Below, piece by piece: positions 20,123-36,198 of a stretch of DNA of 64,000 nucleotides (the stretch's first letter is position 1; each line of letters opens with the position of its first letter). The stretch is taken from the IMG/VR virus record IMGVR_UViG_3300045020_000158, positions 1 through 64,000 of that record; one strand, given 5' to 3'. This stretch comes from a virus (Duplodnaviria > Heunggongvirae > Uroviricota > Caudoviricetes). The translations under genes and the position numbers were made by a program. Below the pieces are notes generated by a model. The model was not told where the DNA came from. It made no database searches and saw only the letters and a program-made list of their open reading frames with translations.

Positions 20123-20350
20123 TCACCGTTTTTTTCCTGTTTTGAGCCGGAATAACTCCCAGAATGCAGCGCGCATCGGAGTCACGTCGAGTTCGAAGTC
20201 CTGCCAAGTACGATAGGAGACACCGATCAGCTCAGCCGCTTCCTTGCGACTGAGACGAGCTTTGAGTCGGCACTCCCTGATCTGAGCGCCGCTCGGTTTA
20301 GCTGACGAACGCACTGATGGCCTGAGGGAGGGACGCGTCCATGCCCACAA
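20123..20350 (-). CDS. small HTH-like protein
   Basis: ECRLKARLSRKEAAELIGVSYRTWQDFE resembles an XRE-type HTH; overlaps the 3' end of rsr. Confidence 0.4.
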   Translation of the reverse strand: MWAWTRPSLRPSVRSSAKPSGAQIRECRLKARLSRKEAAELIGVSYRTWQDFELDVTPMRAAFWELFRLKTGKKR

Positions 20351-21950
20351 AATTCATACACTGCTCGTCACTCGGATCGATCAGACTCGACTCCGTTGCC
20401 GTGAACGCCACGAATCCCAACTTAAGCGGCCCGACTTCCTTTCGGTAGCCGGCCAGCTCGACCGCTGCATGCGTCGGACCGCGCCACGTCTCGTTATCCG
20501 TAAATGCCAACACTGCGTCAGCGGGCGTCTTCGTGGTCCGTGCCCAGCGCACTGGAATCGCACAATCCGTACCACCGCCATTGTTGATAGCGGTCTTGCG
20601 CAGCACGTCATTGAGCGAGTCCTTCGCCGTGATCTTCAGATCCACCAACCCCTGGTGGAAACCGAACGTGTAGCACTGCGGCTCCGTGCGCACAACGATC
20701 ATGGCAAACGCCGCGGCGGCCTCGCAGACGCGGATATTGGAGCCGTCAACGGTGGAAGACATGCTGCCCGAAACGTCGATGCCGATGATGAACCGCTTGC
20801 CGGTGGGCGCCACATTGTGGAACGACAGGTCGAATGCCCCATCCAACGCCGCCACAATCTGCGGCACTACGGTCCAGGTGCCCGAACCCCGGAAGCCATG
20901 ACCGGCCGCGTAGGTGCGCGAAGCCAGCAATACCGCCCAGGGATGCACGCGTGCTTTGCGGATAGCCTCGCCGTCGCTCAACTGACGTTCCACATACTTC
21001 GCCGCCGTAGAAAATACGGTCATCAGGCCGCACTTGGACAGGTTGCCCAGATTGCGGATCAGCGCGGTGTATTTGAGATTCGGCAGCAACGCCTCCCAGA
21101 CCACACCGTGATTCAGGAGCTCGGTCGGCACGAACTCGCGCTCGAGGCGGTGATCCGAAATGATCTTCGCTGCATCTGCGGGGTTCAGGCCGGTCGTCCG
21201 CAGCTTCAGCCATCCATCAATGAACGGCGCAATTTCCCGCACCCCATTCCAGCCGGTCGCGATCATCTGCCGATCGGTCGTGGTCTTGCGGGTCCGCGGC
21301 AGCTGCCGCTCACCACCGGCTTCCGGTGCGCAGATAGCATCCAACACGAGCCGCGTATGGCCGTCATCGGTTGCCGGATGCGCCAGGCGCAATACATCCC
21401 GGTGCGAGATGCCGCCGCGCTGGCCGTACTTGATCGCCTGGTAAGCGATCTCGGAGGCTTTGCGCTGTGTATACCATCGCGAGATGGCCGTGCGCACGCC
21501 GCGGCCCCAGCCGCCTCCGAGGGCCTCACGGTAGGCCACGAAGGTGAACAGATGCGTACCGATGCGGCAGATCTGCGGCAATGCCGCGAAGGCTGCTTTG
21601 CGGGTCGGCTCATCGCCTTTCACGGACGCCAGTGCCAGCACGAAAATGGCCGGATCATTCTTCGGCGCCAATCCCTTGTCGGAAGTCTCGGCGGCTTCGC
21701 GCACGACGCGCGGGCCGTCGATCTTCAGCAGGTTCAGGACGACTTCAGCGTTTTCGAGAGTGAGCTGCTTTTCGGAAGCATAGTACGTTCCCTGACTCGC
21801 ACCGAGCAGCAAAAATCGCTTGAGCCGATCCCAGTCGTTGAGTTCGTAAACGTAGCCTCCGGCTGCGTTCTGGATCATGGGCTCGCGAGGGAGTGGTTGA
21901 GTCTGCGGAATATTCTGCGCAGAGAGGTGACGTGCGTAGTTCGTAGTCAT
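20298..21950 (-). CDS. rsr: Ro60-like ribonucleoprotein Rsr (TROVE domain plus vWA/MIDAS)
   Basis: N-terminal TROVE-like region (YELNDWDRLKRFLLLGASQGTYYASEKQLTLENAEVVLNLLK). C-terminal vWA with MIDAS DxSGS (FIIGIDVSGSMSS); 550 aa. Confidence 0.85.
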   Translation of the reverse strand: MTTNYARHLSAQNIPQTQPLPREPMIQNAAGGYVYELNDWDRLKRFLLLGASQGTYYASEKQLTLENAEVVLNLLKIDGPRVVREAAETSDKGLAPKNDPAIFVLALASVKGDEPTRKAAFAALPQICRIGTHLFTFVAYREALGGGWGRGVRTAISRWYTQRKASEIAYQAIKYGQRGGISHRDVLRLAHPATDDGHTRLVLDAICAPEAGGERQLPRTRKTTTDRQMIATGWNGVREIAPFIDGWLKLRTTGLNPADAAKIISDHRLEREFVPTELLNHGVVWEALLPNLKYTALIRNLGNLSKCGLMTVFSTAAKYVERQLSDGEAIRKARVHPWAVLLASRTYAAGHGFRGSGTWTVVPQIVAALDGAFDLSFHNVAPTGKRFIIGIDVSGSMSSTVDGSNIRVCEAAAAFAMIVVRTEPQCYTFGFHQGLVDLKITAKDSLNDVLRKTAINNGGGTDCAIPVRWARTTKTPADAVLAFTDNETWRGPTHAAVELAGYRKEVGPLKLGFVAFTATESSLIDPSDEQCMNFVGMDASLPQAISAFVS

Positions 21951-21999
21951 GGAAAGGACCTCGAAGTGTGTTGTTTATCGTTCTACATACAAAAATCAA

Positions 22000-22294
22000 A
22001 ATCGAGCGTGGAGAAGAAATACAATTTGCCTTTACCAATAGGCGACCGGCTTAGATAGACCGGACAAGATTCGAACTTGCAGATCGTTTGCGCGATAATG
22101 TATCCCAAGCGGCTCGAAACCCAATCCAAAATCGGTCGTGGAATGAAATCTGCTTAAACCTCCCTTTCGAGAGGTTCTCGGATTCGAACCAAGTTTAACC
22201 AGATAACAGACATCGTCGGACCGAAACTCAAAGAAGTCGTGAAAAATGACCCCGCAGCTTTGTCTCCCATAGATAACGCGGCGTCGTTCGGACC
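22000..22294 (-). ncRNA. candidate Y-RNA-like ncRNA unit 2 (partial tRNA mimic)
   Basis: Minus strand carries a T-arm CTTGG-TTCGAAT-CCGAG (+22167-22183) directly followed by the hairpin AACCTCTC-GAAA-GGGAGGTT (+22147-22166). A second T-arm GCAAG-TTCGAAT-CTTGT lies at +22063-22079. GGTCCGA motifs occur twice. The unit ends in the repeated CGATTTTGATTTTG motif. Boundaries uncertain. Confidence 0.3.
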
Positions 22295-22539
22295 TCAAGT
22301 CAAAATCAAAATCGGGCGTAAAGAATGGCCAGCGATGTCAGAATGGTAGATAACGCTGGCCGGTCGGCCCGAAGCTTTCAAATAGGCGCGGGACCCCTAT
22401 CAACTCAATCAGAACGTAGTCCAATCGTGCACGGGGTACCCGCAGTTGATGCACAATTCCCGGCCCAAAAAACTCAATGAGGCGTGAAAATGATTCAGCA
22501 GTTTTATCTTAACAGGATAATGCTAAATCTTTCGGCCCC

Positions 22540-22700
22540 CAAACCCAAAGACGAACGTGAATTGTGAAACGATATTTTAAGCTGTTGCTCTACCGCTGAG
22601 CTACCAAGTCTTGCGACCTGAACGGGAGTCGAACCCGCGACCATCGGCGATAATCGTTGCATGTCGGCTCGTCATTTTGCGAAGGTACACAGAAACTGTG
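22540..22700 (-). ncRNA. candidate YrlA-like Y RNA with permuted tRNA-like module
   Basis: Minus-strand order is: T-arm GCGGG-TTCGACT-CCCGT (+22622-22638); then a 6-bp hairpin with GNRA loop, CAGGTC-GCAA-GACTTG (+22605-22620); then the D-arm GCTC-AGCGGTA-GAGC (+22587-22601). This matches the tRNA-mimic domain described for bacterial YrlA RNAs encoded next to rsr. Ends approximate. Confidence 0.45.
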
Positions 22701-22706
22701 CGGCAG

Positions 22707-22946
22707 TCAAGCGAACCAGCGGATGTTCAGTGCTTCCAGCGTCGGCATGTCGAGCTGTCCTGGAATTACAGCATCGATCTCGCAATTCGGGCAGAGCGCA
22801 GTGCTATCGTTGTCGACCCACAATTTAACCGCATTTGCAAGACTTATGGTCATACAGAAATAACAGCTCACATGCGTCGCAGCCTGCATCGCTTCGCGAT
22901 GATTGGTCGACAGCAGATGCACGCGTTCGATTTCCATTTTATTCAT
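22707..22946 (-). CDS. hypothetical Cys-rich protein
   Basis: Start at MNKMEIE; C..C...C..C pattern (CYFCMT...CPNCE). Confidence 0.35.
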   Translation of the reverse strand: MNKMEIERVHLLSTNHREAMQAATHVSCYFCMTISLANAVKLWVDNDSTALCPNCEIDAVIPGQLDMPTLEALNIRWFA

Positions 22947-33472: not shown

Positions 33473-33886
33473 ATGAGCAGATTTATCAAAATCTCGTCCA
33501 CCGGCGAGCGCCTTCCAGGCGACGCGTTAGATTGGGTCGCGGTATTGGACGAAAAGCAAGGCTTGATGTGGGCCAAGAATCACATTGCGGTCGACAACTA
33601 CAAAGAGGCGACTTCGGCTCTTGACGGGTTTGAGCTGGCGGCCGCGAAGGACTGGCGACTGCCTACAGTCGAGGAGTTATTTCTTCTCGTCGATCGGACT
33701 CGGACCGGCCCTGCAATCGACGTTGCGTATTTCCCGGACTGTGCATCGGACTGGTACTGGAGCAGCACGCTTTATTCCGCGTCCCCTGGCGATTACGCCT
33801 GGGGCGTCGACTTCAACGTCGGCTACGCCGGCTGGGGCAGCCAGTACGGCAGCGGGTTCGTCCGCGCGTGCCGCGCCGGTCAGTAA
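33473..33886 (+). CDS. DGR target protein 1 (DUF1566 / Lcl C-terminal domain) carrying VR1
   Basis: DWRLPTVEELFLL...YWSST...GFVRACRAGQ fits DUF1566. The C-terminal 34 codons are the variable repeat. Confidence 0.8.
   Translation: MSRFIKISSTGERLPGDALDWVAVLDEKQGLMWAKNHIAVDNYKEATSALDGFELAAAKDWRLPTVEELFLLVDRTRTGPAIDVAYFPDCASDWYWSSTLYSASPGDYAWGVDFNVGYAGWGSQYGSGFVRACRAGQ
33779..33880 (+). repeat. DGR variable repeat VR1
   Basis: 102 nt aligned to the TR. About 14 mismatches, all at TR adenines (AAC codons to GGC/GAC/GTC/TAC/AGC). Identical GC-rich 3' end gggttcgtccgcgcgtgccgcgccggt. Confidence 0.8.
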
Positions 33887-33918
33887 TTCGGTCATTGGTC
33901 TTTTCATCAGGAACCAAC

Positions 33919-34461
33919 ATGGAATCAATCAGTAACGAATTGCGCAGCGTAATTGAGCGACGCCTCCGCGCAGCATCGCCGCGCGAGGTGCTCACGATAG
34001 CCAGTGCCCTTTGCGCTGACGAGCCCGTGCGCGGCACGGCTTGCGTTTTCGGTGAAGCGTCGAAGCCCGCGCGATTCGAGCTACGTGGCGATCTCGTCAT
34101 AGACCACCGCACGGGATTGATGTGGACGCGCGAGAACGTCCCCGGTGGGCGAATGGATTGGGCAGCGGCAAAGAAAGCGGCCGCGGGGGTTGCTTATGGT
34201 GGTCATACGGACTGGCGTCTGCCGACGGTTCGTGAACTCCTGACCATCGTCGACTACGAGCGTCATCAGCCATCGATCAATACTGATGTCTTCAAATGCG
34301 AAGCATCCTGGTATTGGACCTCAACCCCACTCGTCTCGTCCCCTGGCGATTGCGCCTGGTGCGTCGGCTTCAGCAACGGCGACGCCTACTGGGACGGCCA
34401 GTACAGCAGCGGGTTCGTCCGCGCGTGCCGCGCCGGTCAGTCTGTTGAGAATTGGTTCTGA
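33919..34461 (+). CDS. DGR target protein 2 (DUF1566) carrying VR2
   Basis: Start MESISNEL. DWRLPTVRELLTIVD...WYWTST...GFVRACRAGQ. VR2 lies 7 codons before the stop. Confidence 0.75.
   Translation: MESISNELRSVIERRLRAASPREVLTIASALCADEPVRGTACVFGEASKPARFELRGDLVIDHRTGLMWTRENVPGGRMDWAAAKKAAAGVAYGGHTDWRLPTVRELLTIVDYERHQPSINTDVFKCEASWYWTSTPLVSSPGDCAWCVGFSNGDAYWDGQYSSGFVRACRAGQSVENWF
34337..34437 (+). repeat. DGR variable repeat VR2
   Basis: Aligned to the TR with about 13 substitutions, all at TR adenines. Same conserved 3' end as VR1. Confidence 0.8.
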
Positions 34462-34471
34462 GGTCTGACCC

Positions 34472-34900
34472 ATGCGCGGACTCCCAACGATAGTAAAGCA
34501 GGCCGAGCGACTGATGGCGGATATCGAGATCGCCGTCTCTCGCTTCCCGCGCCGGCATCGCTATACAGTTGGGGCTCGCCTGAGCAGTTTCTCGATGGAG
34601 GTCGCCTATTCAGCCCATCAGGCGTGGCGCATACAGGTTTCCCAGACGTTACAAGCATTGGACGAGTCCATCGATCGCCTGAAGCTGCAACTGCAATTGG
34701 CGCAGCAGATTCACGCCTTCGCCAGTTTTGAGCAGTTCGAATTCTTGGCTCGGGCTGCAAATGATCTCGGCAGGCAGTGTGGAGGATGGCAGAAGAAACG
34801 GAATTCCAAGCGGCAGAATGAGCAGGAAGCACAGGCCCCTCCAGCACAGCGTCCGCAGATACTGAGTTCCCATGGCGCCTCAAGCGAGGCAAACACATGA
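34472..34900 (+). CDS. avd: DGR accessory variability determinant (Avd-like four-helix-bundle protein)
   Basis: 142-aa helical basic protein (MRGLPTIVKQAERLMADIEIAVSRFPRRHRYTVGARL...) placed between the targets and the TR/RT. ATGA-coupled to the RT ORF. Confidence 0.7.
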   Translation: MRGLPTIVKQAERLMADIEIAVSRFPRRHRYTVGARLSSFSMEVAYSAHQAWRIQVSQTLQALDESIDRLKLQLQLAQQIHAFASFEQFEFLARAANDLGRQCGGWQKKRNSKRQNEQEAQAPPAQRPQILSSHGASSEANT

Positions 34901-36198
34901 CGAAGCTGTGCTACCCCGTAGGATGTGCGGCTGGGTCCGAAGTACATGGGATAGGAGCGTCCCCTGGCGATTACGCCTGGAACGTCAACTTCAACAACGG
35001 CAACGCCAACTGGAACAACCAGAACAACAGCGGGTTCGTCCGCGCGTGCCGCGCCGGTGAGTGTCAGGATTCCGTACCTCTTCGCACCCTCTATGCTGCC
35101 TGGCGGGCAGCGCGCCGAGGCAAGAAGCCGAGCGCAAATCAGCTCGACTTTGATTCCCAGTGGATCGACGGACTGCTCGATCTACAGAAACGCCTAAATG
35201 CTGGTACGTGGTCGCCCGCTCCTGCGACTTGCTTTATCGCGAAACAGCCAAAGGCCCGCGAGATCCACGCGCCAGATTTCTTTGATCGCATCGTGCATCA
35301 CTGGCTCGTCCCGCAGCTTGAAACGATCTATGAACCGATTTTCATTCATGATGCGTATTCCAACCGGCGTGGGAAAGGCACCCACGCGGCGGTAGACCGG
35401 TTGCGAGATTTCGTGCATCAGGTCCACAACGGCCAAGGCGGCGGCTGGTATTTACAGCTCGATATTCGGAACTTCTTCAACTCGATACACCGGCCAACTC
35501 TCTATGAACTGTTGAAGGAGCGCATGAGTCGACACGGGGTTCCGCTGCCCGCGCGACGTGCCGTCCATGCGCTCCTTCGGCGCTCGACCGCTAACGGCGA
35601 AGTTATTTATCGCTGCAGTCCTGAAGAGCGCACGGCAGTACCCGCCTACAAGCGCCTGGAAAATGCAGTGCCCGGGTGTGGGATCGCGATCGGCAACCTG
35701 TCGAGCCAGTTCTTCGCCAACGTCTACATGAATGAGTTGGATCAGTTTGTGAAGCACGGACTCAAGGCACAGCGCTATATCCGCTATGTCGATGACTTCG
35801 TGCTGGTGCATGAGAGCCGCGCACAACTCATGGCGTGGAGGGAGCAGATCACATGCTTTCTGCGAGACCGGCTGCAGTTGGCATTGAAGCCGGATCAGCG
35901 TCTCGAGCAACTCACAAGCGGCATCGATTTCCTTGGCTACATTATCTTCCCCAGACATACGCTCGTCCGTCGCCGTGTCGTAATCCATGCCGGCGAGAAG
36001 CTCGACTCCTGGAAGCGATGCCATGTCCGCCACGGTCGTGTCAGTGCAAATCCATATGAGATTCAGCAGTTGCGTTCAATCTGCGCAAGCTATGCCGGGC
36101 ATTTCTCCCACGCCAACTCTTGGCGACTGCGCGCGAAATTTCGGCGCCGCTATCCGTGGCTAAAACAGGCCCTGCGCCTGCATGATCATTGCAAATAG
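34897..36198 (+). CDS. DGR reverse transcriptase (start uncertain; ORF includes TR)
   Basis: RT motifs: LYAAWRAARRGKK N-terminus, AIGNLSSQFFANVYMNELD (DGR-type SQ motif), YIRYVDDFVLV (YxDD). No in-frame ATG/GTG/TTG between the TR and the RT core. Confidence 0.85.
   Translation: MTKLCYPVGCAAGSEVHGIGASPGDYAWNVNFNNGNANWNNQNNSGFVRACRAGECQDSVPLRTLYAAWRAARRGKKPSANQLDFDSQWIDGLLDLQKRLNAGTWSPAPATCFIAKQPKAREIHAPDFFDRIVHHWLVPQLETIYEPIFIHDAYSNRRGKGTHAAVDRLRDFVHQVHNGQGGGWYLQLDIRNFFNSIHRPTLYELLKERMSRHGVPLPARRAVHALLRRSTANGEVIYRCSPEERTAVPAYKRLENAVPGCGIAIGNLSSQFFANVYMNELDQFVKHGLKAQRYIRYVDDFVLVHESRAQLMAWREQITCFLRDRLQLALKPDQRLEQLTSGIDFLGYIIFPRHTLVRRRVVIHAGEKLDSWKRCHVRHGRVSANPYEIQQLRSICASYAGHFSHANSWRLRAKFRRRYPWLKQALRLHDHCK
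34957..35058 (+). repeat. DGR template repeat (TR)
   Basis: AAC-rich segment (aacgtcaacttcaacaacggcaacgccaactggaacaaccagaacaacagc) homologous to VR1 and VR2. Lies inside the 5' end of the RT reading frame. Confidence 0.85.

What the first reader, a model, noticed from the sequence alone, without database searches (positions are those of the whole stretch)
20298..22700. Phage-encoded Ro60 (Rsr) with adjacent tRNA-mimic Y-RNA-like ncRNA modules
The 550-aa minus-strand gene has a TROVE N-terminus and a vWA/MIDAS C-terminus. It is followed, on the same strand, by about 650 nt without credible ORFs. Three canonical T-arms on the minus strand are GCGGG-TTCGACT-CCCGT, CTTGG-TTCGAAT-CCGAG and GCAAG-TTCGAAT-CTTGT. 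Two of them are immediately followed by a GNRA-capped helix (CAGGTC-GCAA-GACTTG; AACCTCTC-GAAA-GGGAGGTT). One is then followed by a perfect D-arm (GCTC-AGCGGTA-GAGC). The T-arm, closed acceptor-like stem and D-arm order is the circularly permuted tRNA mimic described for YrlA-type bacterial Y RNAs that partner with Rsr. Two roughly 300-nt units each end with the motif CGATTTTGATTTTG preceded by a hairpin. GGTCCGA motifs, reminiscent of the Ro-binding helix, occur twice in unit 2.
Basis: partly seen in the sequence, partly recalled or inferred. Interest (0 to 1): 0.7.

Follow-up and report, generated by a model that had tools for sequence, protein, structure and literature searches.

The report
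Phage Ro60 gene with Y-RNA array
A phage-like genome carries a Ro60 (Rsr) RNA-binding protein gene preceded by six or seven back-to-back small Y-RNA genes, some tRNA mimics and some resembling animal Y RNAs, which is a larger and more mixed version of a partnership already known in bacteria and phages.

Summary
ORF 20298-21950 (-) is a Ro60/Rsr protein (TROVE + Ro60 vWA). The ORF-free stretch lies upstream (5') of rsr, not after it. It is not two ~300-nt units. It is a head-to-tail array of six clear Y-RNA-like units plus one degenerate unit (21998-22675, minus strand).

Each unit is closed by a 5-7 bp basal helix with the junction 5'-stem-C|CGA ... (C/U)AC|G-stem-3'. Each carries UUAUC after an upper stem and ends in a U-rich linker. 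U1 is a full YrlA-type permuted tRNA mimic. U7 is a variant of it. U6 has only a T arm. U2, U4 and U5 are short stem-loops.

Covariance models built from relatives hit only this array in the 64-kb window. Ten related contigs carry 4-9 such units upstream of rsr, with abundant compensatory changes. Rfam YrlA scores stay below gathering threshold.

Phage Ro60 with Y RNAs is already known (mycobacteriophages, Thermus phage phiLo). The size and mixed composition of the array appear new. So does the link of the short units to an rsr-adjacent RNA class that reaches the Rfam threshold for nematode stem-bulge (Y-like) RNAs in distant loci.

The parts
20298..21950 (-). rsr: Ro60/Rsr orthologue, 550 aa (TROVE/HEAT ring + vWA domain with a DxSxS MIDAS motif)
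   Evidence: Pfam TROVE 1.5e-35 and vWA_Ro60 1.9e-44. phrog_850 RNA-binding protein 2.1e-65. PDB matches: human and Xenopus Ro60 at E~1e-104/5e-102, D. radiodurans Rsr at 9e-101. D392, S394, S396, T461 and D485 are invariant in 22 homologues.
21951..21997 (-). Leader between the last Y unit and the rsr ATG. It contains a block that is nearly identical in the five closest loci (21983-21954, with GAGG about 8 nt before the ATG). No terminator-like site is present.
   Evidence: Alignment A2 columns 989-1020 are almost all identical in 5 loci. No terminator-like site between the array and rsr.
21998..22120 (-). U7: YrlA-type unit. Basal helix UCGAGC/GCUCGA with CCGC...CCAC|G, upper stem, UUAUC, small V hairpin, T arm (22080-22064), short acceptor-like hairpin, D-like arm GCCU-AUUGGUAA-AGGC, then tail UUUUGAUUUUUG.
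   Evidence: R2 64.3 bits, E=6.9e-14. Rfam YrlA 18.4 bits, E=0.72. The MFE fold shows all arms. Orthologues are present in L161-L163.
22128..22227 (-). U6: T-arm-only unit (YrlB-like). Basal helix UCGGUC/GACCGA, 5' GGUCCGA, UUAUC, T arm (22193-22177), 8-bp GAAA-capped helix (22176-22157), no D arm.
   Evidence: R2 46.4 bits, E=1.8e-9, with the D-arm positions deleted. R1 26.6 bits. Fold z-score -2.32. Compensatory change UCGGUU/AACCGA in L163.
22229..22299 (-). U5: short stem-loop Y unit. Basal helix GAGGUC/GACUUC, 5' GGUCCGA, upper stem, UUAUC loop, UUUUUCAC|G.
   Evidence: R1 29.2 bits, E=1.9e-5 over the whole window. Basal helix covaries: GAGGUC/GACCUC in L161 and GAGGGC/GCCCUC in L163.
22308..22375 (-). 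U4: short stem-loop Y unit. Basal helix UCGGGC/GCCCGA, CCGA, 8-bp upper stem GGCCAGCG/CGCUGGCC, loop UUAUCUACCAUUCUGACAU, then tail UUUUGAUUUUG.
   Evidence: Fold z-score -5.01. Member of alignment A4, in which 12 of 15 pairs show double-sided changes. R2, built without window sequence, gives 24.1 bits.
22406..22471 (-). U3: possible seventh, degenerate unit. It has a 9-bp upper stem AAUUGUGCA/UGCACGAUU, AUCAAC in place of UUAUC, and a weak basal helix. A small conserved hairpin follows at 22376-22405.
   Evidence: R2 22.5 bits, E=0.0013. Fold z-score +0.43, so there is no thermodynamic support. Conserved in L162.
22474..22543 (-). U2: short stem-loop Y unit. Basal helix GGGGC/GCCUC, GCCGAAAG (fits the published GNCGAAN0-1G motif), 9-bp upper stem, UUAUC pairing with GAUAA, UUUUCAC|G.
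   Evidence: R1 41.7 bits, E=1.1e-8 over the whole window. Fold z-score -3.63. Orthologue at L164:126-193.
22547..22675 (-). U1: full YrlA-type permuted tRNA mimic. Basal helix GACGAGC/GUUCGUC (7 bp), CCGA, upper stem AACGAU/AUCGUU, UUAUC, T arm (22638-22622), 7-bp acceptor-like stem closed by GCAA, UA, D arm (22601-22587).
   Evidence: R2 86.9 bits, E=1.9e-19. Rfam YrlA 37.5 bits, E=2.3e-6 in a local search, against a gathering score of 69. Motif positions.
22682..22710 (-). Promoter-like element in front of U1: TTGACT (22710-22705), a 17-nt spacer containing the inverted repeat CACAG-N3-CTGTG, then TACCTT (22687-22682). The predicted start is about 2-5 nt before the U1 basal helix.
   Evidence: Read directly. 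The -35, the 17-nt spacing, TACnnT and the inverted repeat are conserved in L161, L162 and L163 (A2 columns ~33-62). The consensus scan did not report it because the -10 matches only 3 of 6 positions. This part is inferred.

Best explanation
This is an rsr operon of a phage, led by a polycistronic array of Y RNAs.

Transcription probably starts at a conserved TTGACT-17-TACCTT element just before U1. It then runs through seven structured units into rsr.

The units are separated by short U-rich linkers (UUUGAGUUU, UUUUGAUUUUG). These are the likely 3'-end or processing sites. Endonucleolytic cleavage would match M. smegmatis, where YrlA and YrlB come from one precursor. Weak termination after each basal helix is an alternative.

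In each released RNA the 5' and 3' ends pair. The helix ends in the conserved junction ...C-CGA / (C/U)AC-G.... This is the counterpart of the GGUCCGA bulged helix and the bacterial GNCGAA motif that Ro60/Rsr contacts. Each unit should therefore load one phage Rsr ring.

The apical modules differ between units: a full permuted tRNA mimic (U1, U7), a T-arm-only module (U6), and plain UUAUC loops (U2, U4, U5). They would tether Rsr to different host partners. Candidates are PNPase or other exoribonucleases, and tRNA-elbow-binding enzymes. They could also gate the Rsr cavity. The net effect would be to redirect host structured-RNA decay or quality control during infection.

Shown here: the protein family; the unit anatomy; the helices (by covariation); strand and position linkage to rsr; conservation and unit turnover among relatives.

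Inferred, not shown: transcription, processing, Rsr binding, the partners and the benefit to the phage.
For: Protein: TROVE + vWA_Ro60, with close matches to solved Ro60/Rsr structures.

Array in the window:
- Seven (C/U)ACG + U-tail anchors.
- Six units fold with a closing helix at the same junction.
- The descriptor is enriched about 100-fold over shuffles.
- R1 and R2 hit only 21998-22675 (-) in 64 kb on both strands. R2 contains no window sequence.

Relatives:
- All ten close loci (59-86% Ro60 identity) have an ORF-free gap of 360-1280 nt directly upstream of rsr.
- These gaps hold 4-9 units.
- Units are gained and lost between loci.

Covariation on structure-blind MAFFT alignments:
- Short units: 91.9% of cells paired versus 31-49% when slid; 12 of 15 pairs with double-sided changes.
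- Long units: 97.2% versus 32-49%; 24 of 29 pairs.
- 56% of YACG anchors have a CCG partner with 5/5 flanking pairs, versus 0-3% in controls, using 14 different stem sequences.

Linkage to rsr: all 116 R1 hits and all 95 R2 hits across 1.09 Mb of rsr loci are on the rsr strand. 88 of 92 distinct R1 hits lie upstream, at a median of 76 nt.

Known systems: R2 and R1 find YrlA plus a short unit upstream of Ro in Gordonia phage BearBQ and Mycobacterium phage I3.

Literature:
- YrlA/YrlB lie upstream of rsr and come from one precursor; the GNCGAA motif; the YUAY motif (PMC4201824).
- Thermus phage phiLo Yrl1/2 bind phage Ro60 and host PNPase (PMC12135203).
Against: - There are no expression, processing or binding data.
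- No unit reaches the Rfam YrlA gathering score (37.5 and 18.4 versus 69).
- Thermodynamic z-scores of U1, U5 and U7 are unremarkable (-1.0 to -1.3), and U3 has none.
- The promoter is weak by consensus and the scan did not call it.
- The 3' side of the junction (CAC-G) differs from the ACUUG of animal Y RNAs and of most distant rsr-linked RNAs, so Rsr recognition of both strands is assumed.
- The host and the effector proteins are unknown.
Confidence: 0.75

Rival explanations
1. The array acts mainly in cis. It would be a long structured 5' leader of the rsr mRNA whose Ro-site-like helices bind Rsr to autoregulate rsr translation or stability, rather than a source of stable trans-acting Y RNAs.
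For: There is no terminator-like site between U7 and rsr. The last unit ends only 47 nt before the ATG. A nearly invariant 30-nt leader precedes the RBS. In most distant loci one unit sits about 55-76 nt upstream of rsr.
Against: In the studied systems the upstream units are excised and accumulate as Rsr-bound small RNAs (M. smegmatis YrlA/YrlB, D. radiodurans; PMC4201824). Seven different apical modules, including conserved tRNA-elbow mimics, are more than autoregulation would need. Conserved U-rich linkers sit between every unit. The two roles are not mutually exclusive.
Confidence: 0.12
2. The tRNA-like units work independently of Rsr. They would be decoys or substrates for host tRNA-directed enzymes, for example anticodon nucleases or other tRNA-targeting defences, or modification enzymes. 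Their position next to rsr would be incidental co-regulation.
For: The phage carries tRNAs. In distant loci rsr and its Y-like RNAs are embedded in large tRNA arrays. [quoted passage not shown] U1 has a 7-bp acceptor-like stem, the feature linked to RNase P cleavage in M. smegmatis.
Against: Every unit, including the three or four without any tRNA-like part, has the same Ro-site-like closing junction. The mimics lack an anticodon arm, which is the target of anticodon nucleases. The strict same-strand linkage to rsr (211 of 211 model hits) argues for a functional pair.
Confidence: 0.08
3. The T arms and the D arm are decayed remnants of ordinary tRNA genes or of an attachment site, with no function of their own.
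For: T-arm and D-arm sequences are close to the tRNA consensus. Weak tmRNA/tRNA-clan hits occur in relatives.
Against: ARAGORN and Rfam find no tRNA here. The arms are in permuted order, inside closing helices that covary. The same architecture recurs upstream of rsr in ten relatives and in isolated phages. Helices keep pairing through 24 of 29 double-sided changes, which decay would not preserve.
Confidence: 0.02

Closest known systems
YrlA/YrlB-rsr loci of Mycobacterium smegmatis and mycobacteriophages (Chen et al. 2014, PMC4201824)
   Same: The Y RNAs lie upstream of rsr on the same strand and, in M. smegmatis, come from one precursor. YrlA has the order T arm, closed acceptor-like stem, D arm inside a 5'/3' helix, with a 5' GNCGAA-like motif and YUAY at the start of the V loop. 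YrlB has only a T arm, like U6. Model R2, built from this clade, scores 69.5 bits on Mycobacterium phage I3 and 84.1 bits on Gordonia phage BearBQ. A short R1 unit lies between that RNA and Ro in both phages.
   Different: Those loci have two units. Here there are six or seven (4-9 in relatives), of at least three architectures. The 3' strand of the Ro-site helix is recognisable here as (C/U)AC-G, whereas the paper says only the 5' strand is recognisable in M. smegmatis and Salmonella. The Rfam YrlA gathering score is not reached.
Thermus phage phiLo Ro60 with Yrl1 and Yrl2 (PMC12135203, 2025)
   Same: It is a phage-encoded Ro60 with Y-RNA-like genes directly upstream. They have a stem-bulge-stem layout with a CGAA motif. 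Binding to phage Ro60 and formation of a complex with host PNPase were shown experimentally.
   Different: That protein is only distantly related (E=3e-9 versus ~1e-100 for Xenopus, human and Deinococcus Ro60). phiLo has two Yrls, with no tRNA-like module reported in the passages I read.
Deinococcus radiodurans rsr with Yrn1/Yrn2 (four small RNAs a-d upstream of rsr)
   Same: Several small RNAs are encoded upstream of rsr. Both strands of the Ro-binding helix are retained. Yrn1 has a T arm and a tRNA-like core in the natural (unpermuted) order. A unit of that order exists in relative L165:3061-3196.
   Different: No window unit has the Yrn1 order. The Deinococcus_Y_RNA model does not hit the window.
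Salmonella Typhimurium rsr-yrlBA-rtcBA operon
   Same: Rsr is partnered with a YrlA tRNA mimic and a second, simpler Y RNA, all transcribed together.
   Different: There the RNAs lie 3' of rsr, and the operon includes RtcB/RtcA under RtcR control. No RtcB family hit appears among the called genes within 4 kb of rsr in eight relatives or among the window ORFs I scanned.
Animal Y RNAs and nematode stem-bulge RNAs (Rfam RF01656 ceN72-3_ceN74-2; Kowalski and Krude 2015, PMC4726728)
   Same: The modular plan is the same: a lower helix with GGNCCGA on the 5' strand, an upper stem, a UUAUC motif opening the loop, and a U-rich 3' tail. UUAUC is present in all six clear window units. The short RNA just upstream of rsr in distant loci passes the RF01656 gathering score (39.2-41.0 versus 38), and a close relative reaches 35.1 bits.
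   Different: The window's own short units do not hit RF01656 or the vertebrate Y_RNA model even at E<=10. Their 3' junction is CAC-G rather than ACUUG. The transcription machinery and partner proteins (Pol III, La) differ. Whether the likeness reflects common descent or convergence on Ro60 binding is open.

Membership tests
Ro60/Rsr (TROVE-domain ring protein) | N-terminal TROVE/HEAT-repeat domain | tested here: met
   Pfam PF05731 at 1.5e-35, 123.7 bits versus cut-off 23. Full-length matches to solved Ro60/Rsr chains.
Ro60/Rsr (TROVE-domain ring protein) | C-terminal von Willebrand A domain with MIDAS residues (DxSxS...T...D) | tested here: met
   PF25045 vWA_Ro60 at 1.9e-44. D392-V-S394-G-S396, T461 and D485 are invariant in 22 homologues.
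Ro60/Rsr (TROVE-domain ring protein) | Binds Y RNA on the outer surface and single-stranded RNA ends in the central cavity | not testable with these tools
   Needs EMSA, RIP or a structure.
YrlA (Rfam RF02553; Chen et al. 2014) | Score at or above the Rfam gathering threshold (69 bits) | tested here: not met
   U1 scores 37.5 bits (E=2.3e-6 in a 1.1-kb search) and U7 scores 18.4 bits. Nothing reaches the gathering score in the window or in ten relatives. The best relative scores 48.7 bits.
YrlA (Rfam RF02553; Chen et al. 2014) | Permuted tRNA-like core: T arm, then a closed acceptor-like stem, then UA + D arm, enclosed by a helix formed from the 5' and 3' ends | tested here: met
   U1 aligns over the full model length to YrlA and to R2 (86.9 bits). 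U7 has a variant D arm (64.3 bits). U6 lacks the D arm. All five helices covary in relatives.
YrlA (Rfam RF02553; Chen et al. 2014) | 5' GNCGAAN0-1G motif (presumed Rsr site) and YUAY opening the V loop | tested here: inconclusive
   YUAY is met (UUAU in UUAUC) in all six clear units. The exact GNCGAA motif occurs only in U2 (GCCGAAAG). U1 and U4 have GCCGAC, U5 and U6 have GUCCGA(A/C), and U7 has GCCGCU.
YrlA (Rfam RF02553; Chen et al. 2014) | Encoded within 4 kb of a Ro60 orthologue | tested here: met
   The array ends 47 nt upstream of the rsr ATG on the same strand.
YrlA (Rfam RF02553; Chen et al. 2014) | Bound by Rsr; modified by TruB/DusA; tRNA-like L-shape | not testable with these tools
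   Requires experiments. The T-loop UUCGA(C/A)U and the D-loop GG are present.
Animal Y RNA / nematode sbRNA (RF00019, RF01656) | Score at or above the Rfam gathering threshold | tested here: not met
   There is no hit to either family in the window region even at E<=10. The threshold is met only by the homologous short RNA of distant rsr loci L022, L030, L051 and L054 (39.2-41.0 versus 38).
Animal Y RNA / nematode sbRNA (RF00019, RF01656) | Lower helix with a bulged C (5' GGUCCGA / 3' UUGACC), an upper stem, and UUAUC at the start of the loop | tested here: inconclusive
   The 5' strand and UUAUC are present (GGUCCGA in U5 and U6; UUAUC in 6 of 6 units). The 3' strand is CAC-G instead of UUG. 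The upper stems covary.

The most novel reading that the evidence does not exclude
The short units (U2, U4, U5) may belong to a widespread, undescribed class of rsr-linked RNAs in prokaryotes and phages that is the true counterpart of animal Y RNAs and nematode stem-bulge RNAs. The classes share a lower helix around GGNCCGA, a G-rich upper stem, UUAUC opening the loop and a CACCAACUUGNCCG-type 3' strand.

On this reading Ro60 and its Y RNA moved together between bacteria, phages and animals. UUAUC would be an ancestral element: it occupies the variable-loop position of the tRNA-like YrlA units. Phage arrays would be the place where tRNA-like and plain Y RNAs interconvert by gain and loss of the tRNA core.
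Probability: 0.3. Interest if true: 0.8.

Novelty: new variant of a known kind. Interest (0 to 1): 0.55.

Why it matters
Ro60 and Y RNAs are studied mainly as a human autoantigen complex and as a bacterial RNA-decay adaptor. The partner of the tRNA-like YrlA domain is still unknown, and so is the role of the UUAUC motif. A phage operon with six or seven different Y RNAs for one Ro60 ring amounts to a natural panel of effector modules on one binding scaffold. Units are swapped in and out between close relatives. That makes it a compact system for several questions: which host enzymes a phage recruits through Ro60, how Y RNAs are cut out of a precursor, and whether plain and tRNA-like Y RNAs derive from each other. 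The link between the short units and an rsr-adjacent RNA class that scores as nematode stem-bulge RNA gives a concrete way to test whether animal and prokaryotic Y RNAs share ancestry. A 2015 review states that they do not (PMC4726728).

Tried and rejected
- blastn of the locus against GenBank phages gave no match.
- A single-protein scan of IMG/VR gave none. An alignment-based scan was needed.
Close relatives had to be fetched one by one.
- The genome-contig scan found no close relative, so the host stays unknown.
- Rfam at gathering threshold found nothing in the array. An Rfam search restricted to the short units gave only noise.
- The MAFFT alignment of all 29 short units was out of register, and RNAalifold recovered only the basal helix. 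I replaced it with a 10-sequence subset (A4).
- My first sequence-only anchor heuristic picked wrong 5' anchors inside basal stems and gave a meaningless cognate/non-cognate contrast. I replaced it with the CCG/YACG test using reversed and shuffled controls.
- The consensus scan found no promoter or terminator in the array.
- The 2020 Annual Review on bacterial Ro60 (PMC10870794) is not held. The claim that known loci have at most about 2-4 Y RNAs therefore rests on the papers I could read.
- I considered and rejected coding potential for the small ORFs in the array (22032-22298, 22504-22662), because units are inserted and deleted between close relatives.
- The tRNA-remnant/att-site reading is treated under rival explanations.


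Full report
**1. What is in the sequence**

The 550-aa minus-strand ORF 20298-21950 is a Ro60/Rsr orthologue.
- It hits Pfam TROVE (1.5e-35) and the Ro60-specific vWA domain (1.9e-44), and PHROG 850 "RNA-binding protein".
- It gives full-length matches to solved human and Xenopus Ro60 and to Deinococcus Rsr (E about 1e-100).
- The MIDAS residues are invariant in 22 homologues.

The surrounding window is phage-like. It has a terminase large subunit, a primase/helicase, a head-closure protein and three tRNAs. Relatives of the Ro60 gene sit on IMG/VR viral contigs.

Two points need correction. On the coding strand the ORF-free stretch 21951-22706 is upstream of rsr, not after it. The "two ~300-nt units ending in CGATTTTGATTTTG" are a partial view of a finer repeat.

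**2. Anatomy of the array**

A (C/U)ACG anchor followed by a U-rich tail (UUUGGGUUUGG, UUUGAGUUU, UUUUGAUUUUG and similar) recurs seven times on the minus strand of this region.

Folding each interval shows that six of them close with a 5-7 bp helix formed by their own 5' and 3' ends. The helix always stops at the same junction: 5'-stem-C|CGA(or CGC) ... (C/U)AC|G-stem-3'.

Inside the basal helix there is a second, upper stem. It is followed immediately by UUAUC in all six clear units.

The units, read 5' to 3' on the minus strand, are:
- **U1 (22547-22675).** UUAUC, T arm, a 7-bp acceptor-like stem closed by GCAA, UA, then a canonical D arm.
- **U2 (22474-22543).** A plain stem-loop with GCCGAAAG.
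- **U3 (22406-22471).** A degenerate copy.
- **U4 (22308-22375) and U5 (22229-22299).** Plain stem-loops.
- **U6 (22128-22227).** A T arm and an 8-bp GAAA-capped helix, but no D arm.
- **U7 (21998-22120).** A T arm, a short hairpin and a D-like arm.

A strict descriptor of the closing junction gives 7 hits in this 810-nt region. It gives 6 in the other ~127 kb of both strands, and a mean of 0.058 in 1000 shuffles.

**3. Independent detection**

Rfam finds nothing at gathering threshold. In a local search its best two hits in the region are both YrlA: U1 at 37.5 bits (E=2.3e-6, full model length) and U7 at 18.4 bits.

I built two covariance models.
- **R1** comes from ten short units, one of which is the window's U4. 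Over the whole window and both strands it hits only U4, U2 (41.7 bits, E=1e-8), U5 (29.2 bits) and U6 (26.6 bits, with the T-arm block as an insertion).
- **R2** comes from ten long units of relatives only. It hits only U1 (86.9 bits, E=2e-19), U7 (64.3 bits), U6 (46.4 bits, D arm deleted), U4 (24.1 bits) and U3 (22.5 bits, E=0.0013).

Nothing else in the 64 kb matches either model.

**4. Relatives**

The protein search found homologues of 59-86% identity. I fetched ten of their contigs.
- All have an ORF-free gap of 360-1280 nt directly upstream of rsr.
- Combining R1, R2 and the descriptor gives these unit counts: 7 in L161 and L163; 4-5 in L162; at least 4 in the truncated L164; 9 in L165; 4 in L166 and L081; 5 in L167 and L168; 6 in L082.
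- The arrays are modular. L162 lacks the U5 and U6 equivalents. L164 lacks U7. L161 and L163 carry extra tRNA-like units.

Basal helices differ in sequence but keep pairing.
- U5 is GAGGUC/GACUUC here, GAGGUC/GACCUC in L161 and GAGGGC/GCCCUC in L163.
- U6 is UCGGUC/GACCGA here and UCGGUU/AACCGA in L163.
- Of 80 YACG anchors in the eleven arrays, 56% have a CCG partner with 5 of 5 further pairs. The figure is 0% with the 3' flank reversed and 3% with it shuffled. Fourteen different stem sequences are used.

On structure-blind MAFFT alignments the covariation is strong.
- Short units: 91.9% of cells paired, versus 31-49% when partners are slid. Double-sided changes occur in 12 of 15 pairs, including all nine upper-stem pairs.
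- Long units: RNAalifold recovers basal stem, upper stem, T arm, acceptor-like stem and D arm. 97.2% of cells are paired versus 32-49%, with 24 of 29 pairs compensatory.

Thermodynamic z-scores alone are convincing only for U2, U4 and U6. The case for U1, U5 and U7 rests on the models and on covariation. U3 remains doubtful.

**5. Linkage to rsr across a wider sample**

I searched 168 rsr loci (1.09 Mb, both strands).
- All 116 R1 hits and all 95 R2 hits lie on the rsr strand.
- Of 92 distinct R1 hits, 88 are upstream of rsr, at a median of 76 nt from the start. 80 carry UUAUC and 87 carry CCG.
- Most distant loci have one to four units. The large arrays are concentrated in the window's clade.

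In isolated phages (Gordonia phage BearBQ, Mycobacterium phage I3) R2 finds one YrlA-type RNA (84.1 and 69.5 bits). R1 finds one short unit between that RNA and the Ro gene. This is the two-unit layout published for M. smegmatis. No RNA is annotated in those records.

**6. How it probably works**

*Established for related systems.*
- Y RNAs pair their ends into a helix that Ro60 binds, mainly through the 5' strand.
- Bacterial Y RNAs share GNCGAAN0-1G near the 5' end.
- M. smegmatis YrlA and YrlB lie upstream of rsr and are cut from one precursor.
- The second module tethers Ro60 to an effector such as PNPase (PMC4201824; bioRxiv 10.1101/312249).
- For Thermus phage phiLo, two upstream Yrls bind the phage Ro60 and host PNPase (PMC12135203).

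*Inferred here.*
- A conserved TTGACT-17 nt-TACCTT element at 22710-22682 has an inverted repeat in its spacer and is kept in L161-L163. It probably starts a transcript a few bases before U1.
- That transcript would run through all units into rsr. No terminator-like site intervenes.
- The U-rich linkers resemble RNase E-type cleavage contexts (my own knowledge, not tested). They also follow a helix, as weak terminators do.
- Each excised unit would load one Rsr ring through the C-CGA / YAC-G junction.
- The different apical modules would direct the ring to different host partners or gate its cavity.

I put 0.75 on "an array of Rsr-binding Y RNAs co-expressed with rsr". I put much less on any specific partner.

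**7. Comparison with what is known**

A phage-encoded Ro60 with neighbouring Y RNAs is not new. Chen et al. listed 22 phages. 371 GenBank phage records carry a Ro-like protein. phiLo has been characterised biochemically.

To my knowledge, and from the papers I could read, three things are new.
- The size of the array: six or seven units here and up to nine in a relative, against two in M. smegmatis, Salmonella and phiLo and up to four small RNAs in Deinococcus.
- The mixture of architectures in one operon: YrlA-type, T-arm-only and plain stem-loops. One relative also has a unit whose tRNA-like core is in the natural D-anticodon-T order (L165:3061-3196).
- The rapid gain and loss of units between close relatives.

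Membership in Rfam YrlA fails on the curated score but is met on architecture. I therefore describe U1 and U7 as divergent YrlA-type RNAs rather than as Rfam family members.

**8. An unexpected lead**

The short units connect, through R1, to a highly conserved RNA about 55 nt upstream of rsr in many distant loci. Its consensus is UCUGCGGGCCGAAGAACAUGGGUUAUCACUCGAAAUGACAUCCCACGUUCACCAACUUGUCCGCAGUU.

- That RNA passes the Rfam gathering score of the nematode stem-bulge RNA family RF01656 in four loci (39.2-41.0 versus 38).
- A unit in close relative L166 reaches 35.1 bits.
- The family consensus printed by cmscan (UCGGUCCGGaG...UGGGUUAUCa...CCCA...CACCAACUUGACCG) shares the lower helix, the G-rich upper stem, UUAUC and the 3' strand almost letter for letter.

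Stem-bulge RNAs are regarded as Y-RNA homologues, and UUAUC is a conserved motif of both (PMC4726728). The same review calls bacterial Y RNAs non-homologous to the vertebrate ones.

The window's own short units do not hit RF01656. They use CAC-G instead of ACUUG. For this window the link is therefore indirect, and convergence on Ro60 binding remains a full alternative. I found no paper in the held library that reports the resemblance.

**9. Verdict**

The object is a new variant (an expanded, mixed array) of a known kind of system. Interest is moderate to good.

Noticed in passing
window 33780-36198: A diversity-generating retroelement. The reverse transcriptase ORF is 34897-36198 (+) (RVT_1 1.5e-16; phrog_1423). 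There is an AAC-rich template-like repeat at 34958-35077 and two variable-like copies at 33780-33899 and 34337-34456. Their differences from the template fall almost only at template adenines (A>G 13 and A>T 4; A>G 11 and A>T 4). There appear to be two target genes. The template copy overlaps the listed start of the RT ORF, so the true RT start is probably further downstream.
   Followed up: partly
L165:3061-3196: In a 74%-identical relative, one array unit has a 10-bp basal helix with the usual CCG/CAC-G junction and UUAUC. Its core is a tRNA-like D arm, anticodon-like hairpin and T arm in the natural, unpermuted order. Rfam tRNA gives 50.3 bits over model positions 5-66, ARAGORN finds nothing, and the fold z-score is -3.19. 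This resembles the Deinococcus Yrn1 arrangement and sits beside permuted YrlA-type units.
   Followed up: partly
L022, L030, L051, L054 (rsr at ~3001 in each): In distant rsr loci the gene is embedded in long tRNA gene arrays. These arrays are interspersed with several sub-threshold YrlA hits and Deinococcus_Y_RNA hits (42-47 bits versus a gathering score of 80). The short RNA just upstream of rsr passes the Rfam gathering score for nematode sbRNA family RF01656.
   Followed up: partly
window 22682-22710 (-): The spacer of the promoter-like element holds the inverted repeat CACAG-N3-CTGTG, conserved in L161-L163. It could be an operator. A LexA_DNA_bind-domain gene lies about 1.7 kb away on the opposite strand in L161 and L162.
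   Followed up: no
window 21954-21983 (-): A 30-nt leader, TAGAACGATAAACAACACACTTCGAGGTCC, is nearly invariant in the five closest loci although the flanking units vary. It contains CACUU...GGUCC, which are pieces of the two strands of a Ro site in reverse order, next to the RBS. It may be a site for Rsr autoregulation. This was not tested.
   Followed up: no
window 20123-20350 (-): A small helix-turn-helix ORF (HTH_31, 5.7e-6) overlaps the rsr stop codon. The same Ro-then-HTH gene order is annotated in Gordonia phage BearBQ and is seen in L165.
   Followed up: no
L171 (Mycobacterium phage I3) 2175-2425; L169 (Gordonia phage BearBQ) 2201-2421: In the GenBank records the YrlA-type and short Y-like RNAs are not annotated. 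In phage I3 they overlap two annotated hypothetical protein genes (241 and 242), which are therefore probably mis-called.
   Followed up: no
window 22707-22946 (-): The ORF just upstream of the array encodes a small protein with two CxxC pairs (CYFC ... CPNC), which looks like a zinc ribbon. It has no Pfam hit. Its stop codon lies inside the -35-like hexamer of the array promoter.
   Followed up: no
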